DNA of 22,197 bases from a virus. Positions 4,156-4,362 of this stretch are shown here, piece by piece (position 1 is the first letter of the stretch; each line of letters opens with the position of its first letter). A program made the translations under genes and the position numbers. The stretch lies in the UHGV virus genome UHGV-0363730. One strand, written 5' to 3'. Under the pieces are notes generated by a model. That model saw nothing but the letters and a program-made list of their open reading frames with translations. It did no database searches and was not told where the DNA came from.

Positions 4156-4195
4156 AAAACCCCGTTTGTTGGCTGCAAGCGGGGTTTTGTGTTTC
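4156..4195 (+). terminator. Hairpin with flanking A/T runs downstream of R (possible bidirectional terminator)
   Basis: AAAACCCCG (4156-4164) / CGGGGTTTT (4180-4188) stem with 15-nt loop, followed by a T-rich stretch. The long loop lowers confidence. Confidence 0.4.
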
Positions 4196-4224
4196 CTGAC
4201 TCTGGAAAAGTCAAAGGAGAAAGT

Positions 4225-4362
4225 GTGTTTGATTTTAGCAAACTGATTCGGGAGATTCGAGTGATGGCTGAAAAATTATCCACCTGGAAGTTCATTCTTA
4301 TCTGGCTGGTGTTTGTGATTATGGCCTCCGGTTATTTCATCGGTCAGATACGCTGGTGGTGA
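4225..4362 (+). CDS. Small hydrophobic peptide (45 aa from GTG 4225, or 32 aa from ATG 4264), single TM helix; stop is 1 nt before the Rz start
   Basis: RBS AGGAGA at 4215-4220; translation [45 protein letters not shown]; TGA at 4360-4362, then Rz ATG at 4364. Too short to appear in the ORF track. Confidence 0.4.

What the first reader, a model, noticed from the sequence alone, without database searches (positions are those of the whole stretch)
4156..4362. Small transmembrane peptide gene inserted between the SAR endolysin and Rz
In lambda R and Rz are adjacent. Here a ~300-bp insert carries a hairpin, a strong RBS (AGGAGA) and a 32-45 aa single-TM peptide (…[24 protein letters not shown]) whose stop lies 1 nt before the Rz start. 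A small membrane peptide co-expressed with spanins could modulate lysis timing, or be an unrelated membrane-acting moron.
Basis: partly seen in the sequence, partly recalled or inferred. Interest (0 to 1): 0.5.

Follow-up and report, generated by a model that had tools for sequence, protein, structure and literature searches.

The report
Mobile small membrane-peptide cassette before Rz
The gap between the endolysin and spanin genes holds a real, conserved 45-residue membrane-peptide gene on a ~210-bp cassette that also turns up in unrelated lysis cassettes and in tail-gene clusters of many enterobacterial prophages; what it does is untested.

Summary
A 298-bp gap (4066-4363) separates the SAR lysozyme from Rz. 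It holds a terminator-type hairpin (4156-4188), an AAGGAGA ribosome-binding site and an ORF whose stop lies 1 nt before the Rz ATG.

Comparison with about 20 diverged copies shows:
- The gene is real. Pairwise dN/dS is mostly 0.03-0.29 at saturated dS.
- It starts at GTG 4225 and encodes 45 aa.
- It belongs to PHROG 6632 (function unknown): an amphipathic N-terminal helix, one C-terminal TM helix and an RWW end.

Hairpin, leader and ORF travel together as a ~210-bp, low-GC cassette (about 4153-4362). It lies between endolysin and i-spanin in at least 7 non-homologous lysis cassettes. It also lies between baseplate genes and beside tail-fibre genes. So it is not spanin-specific.

Synonymous change is suppressed in two boxes, codons 3-6 and 10-12. 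On the minus strand these read as an extended -10 (TGCTAAAAT) and a -35 box 17 nt apart. They point at the hairpin, which is a symmetric bidirectional terminator. This predicts an ~80-nt cis-antisense RNA over the translation start.

Best reading (inferred, untested): a tightly throttled, type-I-toxin-like late membrane peptide that tunes late membrane events such as lysis. Interest is moderate.

The parts
3532..4065 (+). Endolysin R (177 aa; N-terminal hydrophobic stretch read as a SAR domain). Left neighbour, not part of the cassette.
   Evidence: PF00959 E 8e-25; phrog_7 endolysin. The SAR assignment rests on the sequence and was not tested.
4066..4152 (+). AT-rich spacer after R. It is shared with prophages that carry the alternative ant + 48-aa insert, so it lies outside the cassette.
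   Evidence: Aligns with Sakai Sp10 up to AAGTGAATAAA(A)G and then diverges. GC 0.39.
4156..4188 (.). Bidirectional intrinsic-terminator hairpin, at the left end of the cassette.
   Evidence: Terminator scan. 13 consensus pairs, 5 with changes on both sides. T-tail scores 3.25 (+) versus 3.44 (-) and similar stem energies on the two strands.
4189..4219 (+). U/C-rich tail plus a second small hairpin (TGACT 4197-4201 / AGTCA 4209-4213; outer UUCC with GGAG). Its 3' arm runs into the Shine-Dalgarno sequence.
   Evidence: RNAfold of 12 homologues predicts such a hairpin in 11 of them. Stems differ between lineages: TGACT/AGTCA, CCTTG/CAAGG, CGTTA/TAACG, CCTG/CAGG. This hairpin is not the lowest-energy fold once the first ORF codons are included.
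4214..4220 (+). Shine-Dalgarno sequence AAGGAGA.
   Evidence: Read from the sequence. A purine-rich SD sits at the same distance in all homologues.
4225..4362 (+). 45-aa peptide gene with GTG start: [45 protein letters not shown].
   Evidence: phrog_6632 E 1e-29 over the full length. dN/dS mostly 0.03-0.29. RefSeq WP_000459345.1 'hypothetical protein'. AF2 helices 4-17 and 20-44, pLDDT 83. TM at 24-42; flank charges 5+ on the N side versus 1+ on the C side.
4232..4260 (-). Candidate antisense promoter: extended -10 TGCTAAAAT (reverse complement of 4232-4240) and -35 TCGAAT (reverse complement of 4255-4260), 17-nt spacer.
   Evidence: Zero synonymous change at codons 3-5, 10 and 12 (0.14 at codon 6, 0.06 at codon 11), against 0.38-0.54 in the spacer codons 7-9 and 0.57 in codons 19-45. 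TGnTAAnAT is kept in 16 of 16 diverse copies. Inferred; expression not shown.
4142..4227 (-). Predicted ~80-nt cis-antisense RNA covering the start codon, the SD and the leader, ending at the terminator with tail UUUUUACUUUUAUU.
   Evidence: Follows from the geometry of the promoter and terminator. Fold z = -4.06. No Rfam family on either strand. Not experimentally supported.
4364..4831 (+). Rz i-spanin (with Rz1 o-spanin embedded at 4584-4769). Right neighbour; its start lies 1 nt after the peptide stop.
   Evidence: PF03245 E 2e-47 and PF06085 E 4e-20.

Best explanation
Window 4153-4362 is one copy of a ~210-bp mobile cassette found in late operons of enterobacterial prophages.

What it encodes: a 45-aa inner-membrane peptide made from GTG 4225. 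It has an amphipathic N-terminal helix predicted to be cytoplasmic, a single C-terminal TM helix, and only RWW on the far side of the membrane.

How it is expressed: here it is transcribed only as part of the pR' late transcript. Its stop sits 1 nt before the Rz start, so the two are positioned for translational coupling.

How its synthesis is throttled:
- a terminator directly upstream;
- an SD-occluding hairpin;
- a GTG start;
- probably an ~80-nt cis-antisense RNA, made from a promoter embedded in codons 3-12 and ended by the same bidirectional terminator.

This is the logic of a type I toxin: a small membrane-active peptide kept silent until sense transcripts outnumber the antisense RNA.

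Most likely role: a membrane-perturbing accessory of the late phase that tunes lysis timing or efficiency. It is not a dedicated partner of the spanins.

Shown: a real conserved gene, its start codon, its predicted architecture, the cassette boundaries, its multiple genomic contexts and the conserved RNA hairpins.

Inferred: the antisense RNA, toxicity or membrane activity, and any effect on lysis.
For: - Purifying selection on the ORF and a fixed length of 45 codons.
- GTG/TTG start plus SD conserved.
- Full-length match to phrog_6632.
- Family confined to Enterobacterales and always 42-51 aa: 54 clusters among 1.84 billion representatives.
- Predicted helix-break-helix and N-in topology.
- Cassette boundaries and low GC, 0.44 against 0.54 and 0.56 in the flanks.
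- Hairpin covariation and symmetry between strands.
- SD-occluding hairpin with lineage-specific stems.
- Synonymous-site suppression confined to two boxes that match a minus-strand extended -10 and -35 at 17-nt spacing.
- Contexts in at least 7 non-homologous lysis cassettes, always at the endolysin/i-spanin junction.
- Contexts in baseplate, tail and other late clusters.
- Allelic replacement by other small peptides ending in RWW behind the same leader.
- Precedent: the type I system hokW-sokW in Stx prophage Sp5 promotes phage release (PMC8621323).
Against: - No expression data exist for either strand. The Hfq-CRAC peaks in O157 Sakai do not include such an RNA, but the two Sakai prophages inspected (Sp10, Sp15) carry the other insert type, so this is uninformative.
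- The -35 box matches the consensus at only 3 of 6 positions.
- The + strand hairpin has more G-U pairs than the minus strand (13 versus 4 cells) and folds as well or better. The hairpin therefore also works in the mRNA and need not serve an antisense RNA.
- Classical type I toxins have their own sense promoter; none was found.
- There is no homology to any known toxin, holin or defence family.
- A terminator inside myovirus baseplate operons seems costly.
- Toxicity and any lysis phenotype are untested.
Confidence: 0.4

Rival explanations
1. It is a dedicated lysis regulator (antiholin-like, holin-trigger or spanin modulator). Its position just before the i-spanin is functional, and the copies in tail clusters are secondary strays.
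For: - In every lysis cassette examined it sits at the endolysin/i-spanin junction, never elsewhere. This holds across at least 4 Pfam-confirmed endolysin families (PF00959, GH19, M15_4, GH108) and at least 3 i-spanin families (Rz, DUF2514, DUF2570/LysC).
- The stop lies 1 nt from the spanin start in most of them.
- The alternative insert at the same site in Sakai Sp10 and Sp15 also ends with a small TM peptide (phrog_4906) 7 nt before Rz.
- No empty R/Rz junction was seen in this phage lineage.
- From established knowledge: P2 lysA, a membrane-protein gene between endolysin K and lysB, affects lysis timing.
Against: - Intact, conserved copies lie between the baseplate spike and the sheath-initiator gene in E. 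coli and Yersinia, and after tail-fibre or other structural genes in four further genera.
- The flanking spanins are non-homologous, so a specific protein partner is unlikely.
- It has no holin-like charged C-terminus.
Confidence: 0.2
2. It is a lysogenic-conversion or superinfection-exclusion moron. The peptide would be made in the lysogen and block incoming phage DNA, or alter a host membrane protein.
For: - Low-GC insert between late genes.
- Variable, allelic small TM peptides at the same sites, suggesting an arms race.
- From my own knowledge, not tested here: the HK97 gp15 moron in a tail cluster is a small inner-membrane exclusion protein.
Against: - No conserved sense promoter.
- A terminator lies immediately upstream and none downstream.
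- The GTG start and occluded SD argue for minimal expression outside late transcription.
- No hit in PADLOC.
Confidence: 0.12
3. It is mainly a cis-acting adapter. The small ORF and the terminator exist to set transcription and translational coupling of the downstream gene (Rz here), and the peptide itself is incidental.
For: - The stop is 1-3 nt from the downstream start in most contexts.
- The invariant ...TGG TGG TGA end supplies a GGUGG SD-like element for the next gene (read from the sequence).
- A terminator-like hairpin sits upstream.
Against: - Amino-acid conservation runs along the whole peptide, with low dN/dS (mostly below 0.3) and preserved amphipathic and TM architecture even at about 40-50% identity.
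- In Enterobacter the next gene starts 22 nt away.
- In Izhakiella and Sodalis no coupled downstream gene is evident.
Confidence: 0.08
4. There is no protein at all. The conserved block is a non-coding RNA element, and the ORF is an accident or an annotation artefact.
For: Strong RNA structure and nucleotide-level conservation in the leader and the first 36 nt of the ORF.
Against: - Codons 19-45 show free synonymous change (0.57) with conserved residues.
- There are no frame disruptions in 110 of 110 full-length copies, although this sample is biased towards intact copies.
- Distant members keep the length and the hydropathy pattern.
Confidence: 0.03

Closest known systems
Type I toxin-antitoxin modules in prophages, e.g. 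hokW-sokW of Stx2 prophage Sp5 (PMC8621323), with symE/SymR-type geometry (my knowledge)
   Same: A peptide under 60 aa with a single TM helix. Translation start region buried in structure. A predicted short cis-antisense RNA with its own promoter and Rho-independent terminator overlapping the SD and start codon. Prophage-borne. HokW was shown to aid phage release.
   Different: No sequence relation to Hok, Ldr, Ibs, TisB, Zor or other families (no Pfam or NCBIfam hit). No sense-strand promoter: the peptide rides on the late operon. The TM helix is C-terminal (tail-anchored), not N-terminal. The antisense RNA and toxicity are inferred, not shown.
Accessory membrane proteins of lysis cassettes (P2 LysA, antiholins such as lambda S107 or S21-71, Mu releasin gp25) - my knowledge plus PMC9239132
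   Same: A small membrane protein encoded inside a lysis cassette next to the endolysin and spanin genes, and co-transcribed late.
   Different: Not homologous. Much smaller than LysA, which has 4 TMDs. Also found outside lysis cassettes. No timing phenotype is known.
ant + 48-aa peptide insert (ECs_1965/ECs_1966; phrog_4906) at the same R/Rz site in O157 Sakai Sp10 and Sp15 and in 933W-type phages
   Same: Same insertion point after the shared post-R spacer. It also ends with a small single-TM peptide gene a few nt before Rz.
   Different: About 990 bp. It carries a P22_AR_N antirepressor-like gene. Its peptide is unrelated in sequence and lacks the hairpin leader.
Morons of lambdoid phages (Juhala et al. 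2000, as cited in PMC4104026), e.g. HK97 gp15 (my knowledge)
   Same: Extra DNA of deviant composition inserted precisely between two late genes. Small membrane protein cargo. Occurs in tail clusters as well.
   Different: A classical moron is promoter-gene-terminator on the sense strand. Here the only complete promoter-to-terminator unit is on the antisense strand, and the sense terminator lies upstream of the gene.
Sibling cassettes: phrog_12997 peptides (…WVKWW) and a 48-aa family (MNINLGEWVV…VVRWW)
   Same: The same hairpin-leader-SD architecture, the same size class, a C-terminal TM helix and an (R/K)WW end. They are tandem with, or allelic to, the phrog_6632 gene.
   Different: Their N-terminal halves are unrelated. 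Their function is equally unknown.

Membership tests
PHROG 6632 (uncharacterised small phage protein) | Full-length match to the family HMM | tested here: met
   E 1.2e-29, residues 1-45 on profile positions 1-45 of 45. Diverged members P0024, P0015 and P0047 also match.
Type I toxin-antitoxin system | Small (under 60 aa) hydrophobic peptide with one TM helix | tested here: met
   45 aa. Best 19-residue Kyte-Doolittle window 2.13 at residues 24-42. AF2 helix 20-44.
Type I toxin-antitoxin system | Antisense RNA with its own promoter and terminator that pairs with the toxin mRNA | tested here: inconclusive
   A conserved minus-strand TGnTAAnAT and -35 box are revealed by synonymous-site suppression, together with a bidirectional terminator. 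There is no transcript evidence and no Rfam family.
Type I toxin-antitoxin system | Toxin mRNA made from its own promoter | tested here: not met
   No sense promoter in the scan. Only about 10 conserved A-rich nt lie upstream of the hairpin across contexts.
Type I toxin-antitoxin system | Homology to a known toxin family (Hok/Gef, Ldr, Ibs, TisB, ShoB, Zor, DinQ and others) | tested here: not met
   No Pfam or NCBIfam match at permissive thresholds.
Type I toxin-antitoxin system | Growth arrest or membrane damage on over-expression, relieved by the RNA | not testable with these tools
   Needs experiments.
Holin / pinholin | Match to a holin family | tested here: not met
   No holin Pfam or PHROG hit. 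The cassette already has an S21-type holin (PF04971) at 3312-3527.
Holin / pinholin | Charged, hydrophilic C-terminal cytoplasmic tail after the last TMD | tested here: not met
   Only RWW follows the TM helix.
Holin / pinholin | Timed lethal hole formation that releases or activates the endolysin | not testable with these tools
   Needs genetics.
Moron (sense-strand promoter-gene-terminator unit in a late operon) | Inserted between two otherwise adjacent late genes, with deviant base composition | tested here: met
   R and Rz overlap in K-12 Qin. Cassette GC is 0.44 against 0.54 and 0.56 in the flanks. The same cassette occurs in unrelated contexts.
Moron (sense-strand promoter-gene-terminator unit in a late operon) | Own sense promoter upstream and terminator downstream of the cargo gene | tested here: not met
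   The terminator is upstream. The stop is 1 nt from the Rz ATG, so there is no downstream terminator. No sense promoter was found.
Known anti-phage defence proteins (PADLOC-DB) | Match to a defence-system model | tested here: not met
   No hits for the peptide, two relatives or the two sibling peptides.

The most novel reading that the evidence does not exclude
The cassette is the prototype of an unrecognised class of type-I-toxin-like modules built into phage late operons. The antitoxin RNA's promoter is written into the first 12 codons of the toxin gene. A shared bidirectional terminator insulates both transcripts. The peptide is translated only when late sense transcripts titrate the antisense RNA. 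This would make an RNA-set threshold that feeds into membrane depolarisation and hence into holin triggering and lysis timing. Related cassettes (phrog_12997 and the 48-aa VVRWW family) would be interchangeable alleles.
Probability: 0.2. Interest if true: 0.7.

Novelty: new variant of a known kind. Interest (0 to 1): 0.5.

Why it matters
- The endolysin/spanin junction of lambdoid, P22-like and other enterobacterial prophages, including Stx1, Stx2a and Stx2c converting phages and H-19B, often carries this unstudied gene. About 16% of complete E. coli genomes (871 of 5426) have this exact R-peptide-Rz arrangement.
- If the peptide alters membrane energisation or lysis timing, it would affect phage burst. 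In Stx phages it would also affect toxin release.
- The cassette is a compact example of a protein gene with a candidate promoter embedded in its own codons. That can be tested with a handful of synonymous mutations.
- The gene is usually missed or inconsistently called by annotation pipelines: 45, 57, 65 or 72 aa, or not called at all.

Tried and rejected
- **Known RNA family in the gap:** none at the Rfam gathering threshold. Only weak, terminator-driven sub-threshold hits appear on either strand.
- **Pas sRNAs and anti-sRNAs (AgvB, AsxR):** these map upstream of the holin, not in the R-Rz gap.
- **Hfq-CRAC peaks in O157 Sakai as evidence for an antisense RNA:** the nearest peak, EcOnc11, lies downstream of Rz. 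The two Sakai prophages inspected, Sp10 and Sp15, carry the ant-type insert, so the data set cannot test the idea.
- **E. coli K-12 ribosome-profiling literature:** in K-12 Qin, rrrQ and rzpQ overlap with no insert.
- **Literature search** by RefSeq accession and by peptide strings: no papers.
- **57-aa reading from GTG 4189 and longer 65-72-aa calls:** the upstream frame is not conserved and is closed by stops in other species.
- **Minus-strand promoter-like site 4347-4318** found by the scan: not conserved in homologues (inspection).
- **Antisense 97-aa ORF 4002-4295**, annotated in phage CP-1639: not kept open across homologues.
- **A + strand pairing between codons 2-4 and the region just 5' of the SD**: not conserved in Salmonella-type copies.
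- **Defence, toxin or holin homology:** none.
- **An empty R/Rz junction in this lineage,** to define target-site features: none seen among phage records.

Full report
**1. What is in the window**

The window is the late region of a lambda-like prophage.
- An STnc100-type pR'/tR' RNA lies at 187-403.
- A SASA-family esterase gene follows at 611-2584.
- The lysis genes come next: an S21-type holin (3312-3527), a lysozyme (3532-4065), and Rz (4364-4831) with Rz1 embedded at 4584-4769.
- Nu1, the terminase, head and tail genes then follow, all on the + strand.

The finding concerns the 298-nt gap between R and Rz.
- A 14-pair G+C-cored hairpin at 4156-4188, followed by TTTTGTGTTT.
- AAGGAGA at 4214-4220.
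- An in-frame GTG at 4225 and ATG at 4264.
- TGA at 4360-4362, one nucleotide before the Rz ATG.

In K-12 Qin the homologous rrrQ and rzpQ genes overlap with nothing between them.

**2. It is a real gene, and it starts at GTG 4225**

The 45-aa product matches PHROG 6632 (function unknown) end to end, E 1e-29. It has no Pfam, NCBIfam or PADLOC match. PGAP sometimes calls it (WP_000459345.1, 'hypothetical protein'). Other pipelines-72-aa versions or nothing.

Protein and genome searches found relatives in these genera:
- Escherichia, Salmonella, Citrobacter, Enterobacter, Klebsiella, Trabulsiella
- Edwardsiella, Yersinia, Izhakiella, Sodalis, Brenneria
- Symbiopectobacterium, Serratia, Providencia and Dryocola

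An exhaustive profile search of 1.84 billion cluster representatives found only 54 clusters. All are 42-51 aa with the same layout.

Between diverged copies, synonymous sites are near saturation (pS mostly 0.5-0.8) while non-synonymous divergence is 0.03-0.35. This gives dN/dS of about 0.03-0.29 wherever divergence allows an estimate.

Evidence for the start codon:
- GTG (TTG in Edwardsiella) preceded by a purine-rich SD is conserved in every copy.
- The frame upstream of it is closed by stops in other species.
- Codons 7-9 change synonymously while the residues are kept.

So the N-terminal 13 residues are translated. Met14 is invariant in the 20 full-length 45-aa copies compared in detail (it falls in a deletion in the shorter relative P0079). 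It is preceded by a conserved GGGAG (GGGGG in Symbiopectobacterium) 10 nt upstream, so a minor internal start cannot be excluded.

**3. The peptide**

The sequence is [45 protein letters not shown].
- Residues 4-21 form a strongly amphipathic helix (muH 0.59).
- Residues 24-42 are the only hydrophobic span.
- Five of the six basic residues lie N-terminal to that span.
- AlphaFold2 with a 16-sequence alignment gives helix 4-17, a break at 18-19 (usually Pro19 in relatives), and helix 20-44, mean pLDDT 83.

The predicted topology is N-in, tail-anchored, with only RWW beyond the membrane.

**4. It is part of a mobile cassette**

The conserved unit across genera is:
- an A-rich run;
- a hairpin (…AAAACCCCG-loop-CGGGGTTTT…);
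- a U/C-rich tail;
- a small second hairpin running into the SD;
- a GTG;
- 45 codons and the stop.

The first hairpin has 13 consensus pairs, 5 of them with changes on both sides (for example CTCCG/CGGAG in Edwardsiella and ACCCG/CGGGT in Providencia). The second hairpin has lineage-specific stems: TGACT/AGTCA, CCTTG/CAAGG, CGTTA/TAACG and CCTG/CAGG.

In this window the left boundary is about 4153. The 87 nt after R are shared with O157 Sakai Sp10, which then diverges. Sp10 (and likewise Sp15) carries a different ~990-bp insert: a P22_AR_N antirepressor-like gene plus a 48-aa TM peptide (phrog_4906) ending 7 nt before Rz.

Cassette GC is 0.44, against 0.54 for R and 0.56 for Rz.

Among phage records with this R and Rz, every record in which both halves could be joined has the ~298-nt insert. 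No empty junction was seen. The exact R-peptide-Rz arrangement is present in 871 of 5426 complete E. coli genomes. It also occurs in H-19B and in Stx1a, Stx2a and Stx2c phages.

**5. Genomic contexts**

*Lysis cassettes.* The cassette is always between the endolysin and the i-spanin, although the flanking genes are non-homologous:

| Host / locus | Arrangement |
|---|---|
| Window | S21 holin / PF00959 lysozyme / Rz |
| Salmonella (P22-like) | holin_2_3 / lysozyme / Rz |
| E. fergusonii | holin_8 / GH19 / DUF2514 |
| E. coli | holin_8 + holin_3_7 / Peptidase_M15_4 / Rz or DUF2570+LysC |
| Enterobacter | GH19 / a probable spanin pair |
| Citrobacter and Edwardsiella | Cassettes with other endolysins and Rz/Rz1-like pairs, judged from ORFs only |

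*Non-lysis contexts.* Intact copies also lie elsewhere:
- Between the baseplate spike (Apex domain) and the Sheath_initiator gene, followed by Baseplate_J, in E. coli. The same arrangement is seen in Yersinia and in an IMG/VR contig, and truncated copies occur in Serratia and Dryocola.
- After tail-fibre-like or baseplate-like genes in Sodalis and Izhakiella.
- After a ~965-aa structural protein in Brenneria and Symbiopectobacterium.
- In a podovirus-like block. There it is allelic to a different 48-aa peptide (MNINLGEWVV…SVVRWW) that uses the same leader.

E. fergusonii has two tandem cassettes. The first encodes a phrog_12997 peptide ending in KWW.

The common denominator is a late operon, not spanins.

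**6. Nucleotide-level constraint inside the ORF**

Pairwise synonymous difference is 0.57 for codons 19-45 but 0.22 for codons 2-18.
- It is zero at codons 3, 4, 5, 10 and 12, 0.14 at codon 6, and 0.06 at codon 11.
- The intervening codons 7-9 vary normally, at 0.38-0.54.

Read on the minus strand, the first box (GAT TTT AGC AAA, window 4231-4242) gives TGCTAAAAT, an extended -10.
- All four free synonymous positions (-14 G, -12 T, -11 A, -8 A) match the consensus in 16 of 16 diverse copies.
- This holds even where codon 4 encodes Phe, Ile or Leu.

The second box (GAG TTG/ATT CGA) gives TCGCAA/TCGAAT exactly 17 nt upstream. As a -35 it is weak, matching 3 of 6 positions.

A transcript from this promoter would start at about the GTG. 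It would run antisense across the SD and the second hairpin and end at the first hairpin.

That hairpin is a symmetric bidirectional terminator. T-tail scores are 3.25 (+) against 3.44 (-), and stem energies are -13.4 against -11.4 kcal/mol. The predicted ~80-nt RNA folds well, z = -4.06.

This is inference. No expression data could be found, and Rfam has no such family.

The + strand hairpin carries more G-U pairs than the minus strand (13 versus 4 cells). So the structure is also selected in the mRNA. There it would act as a terminator or attenuator ahead of the gene, and its U/C tail would help to occlude the SD.

**7. Interpretation**

Shown:
- A conserved, translated small membrane-peptide gene.
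- It sits on a mobile, low-GC cassette inserted seamlessly in front of a late gene.

Inferred: its synthesis is deliberately kept low and conditional. The signs are an upstream terminator, an occluded SD, a GTG start and a candidate cis-antisense RNA. That is the design of membrane-active type I toxins.

A type I system in Stx prophage Sp5, hokW-sokW, has been shown to promote phage release (PMC8621323).

The most economical function for a late-only, membrane-inserted peptide found in both lysis and tail operons is a general effect on the energised membrane late in infection. That would affect holin triggering and lysis timing or efficiency.

The strict endolysin/i-spanin placement within lysis cassettes keeps a lysis-specific role alive as the main rival. 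So does the presence of another small TM peptide at the same spot in the alternative insert. Prophage-expressed exclusion and a purely cis-acting adapter role are less likely, for the reasons given under the rival explanations.

**8. Novelty and score**

- The protein family is catalogued (PHROG 6632) but uncharacterised. I found no paper on it.
- New here: the start-codon assignment, the cassette concept, the range of contexts, the sibling and allelic peptide families, and the embedded antisense-promoter signature.
- It is a new variant of known kinds (phage accessory membrane peptides and type-I-toxin-like modules), not a new category.
- Interest is moderate, 0.5. It is widespread, sits in medically relevant Stx phages and is cheap to test, but its function is still unknown.

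Noticed in passing
window 187-403 (+): Full-length match to Rfam STnc100 (150.6 bits), the pR'-proximal prophage sRNA. A 2026 preprint relates it to PasD. It marks the start of the late operon in this window.
   Followed up: partly
window 4900-4960 (-): About 75-125 nt downstream of the Rz stop, the sequence is homologous to the site of the Hfq-CRAC peak EcOnc11 of O157 Sakai Sp10 (1946819-1946867, minus strand). EcOnc10 and EcOnc12 (in Sp12 and Sp9) have nearly identical peak areas and may be copies; this was not checked. This suggests an uncharacterised Hfq-bound antisense sRNA just after Rz. Coordinates in the paper may refer to an older record version.
   Followed up: partly
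window 5142-5468 (+): A lipoprotein (signal sequence ...LAVGC) with a TonB_C domain (PF03544, E 7e-13) sits where lambda carries bor, downstream of Rz/Rz1. A TonB C-terminal domain on a prophage lipoprotein is an unusual cargo.
   Followed up: no
window 3236-3300 (+), terminator 3245-3273: A strong terminator hairpin lies just upstream of the holin, after DUF1378 (2725-2919) and DUF826 (within 2771-3235) ORFs. This is the position where the Pas sRNA preprint places PasA/PasC (between the esterase and the holin). Not checked against their sequences.
   Followed up: no
L120 4556-5271 and L121 1749-2464 (O157 Sakai Sp10 and Sp15): Alternative insert at the same R/Rz site: a P22_AR_N antirepressor-like gene plus a 48-aa single-TM peptide (phrog_4906, ECs_1966/ECs_5741) ending 7 nt before Rz. 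A second, unrelated small membrane peptide therefore sits directly upstream of the i-spanin.
   Followed up: partly
L008 about 3715-3870: E. fergusonii carries two tandem cassettes between the GH19 endolysin and the DUF2514 spanin. The first encodes a 50-aa phrog_12997 peptide (…LLVWAASWVKWW) with its own hairpin and CGTTA/TAACG leader.
   Followed up: partly
L231, L125 versus L178 (IMG/VR contigs): In otherwise identical podovirus-like gene blocks, the same leader precedes either a 48-aa peptide (MNINLGEWVV…SVVRWW) or a phrog_6632 member. These are allelic small-peptide cassettes. L192 has two further tandem small TM ORFs.
   Followed up: partly
L106-L110 (E. coli prophages): Toxin genes are embedded beside the lysis genes: Enterotoxin_a + LT-IIB (LT-II-like), pertussis-S1-like, and a Peptidase_S8 gene, upstream of or inside cassettes that also carry the 45-aa peptide. 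LT-II prophages are known from the literature (my knowledge).
   Followed up: no
L012 4001-4138: One E. coli copy has two compensating 1-nt indels that scramble residues 22-34 (…[19 protein letters not shown]…) yet restore the frame and the RWW end. The neighbouring R and Rz are fragmented, so this is a decaying prophage.
   Followed up: no
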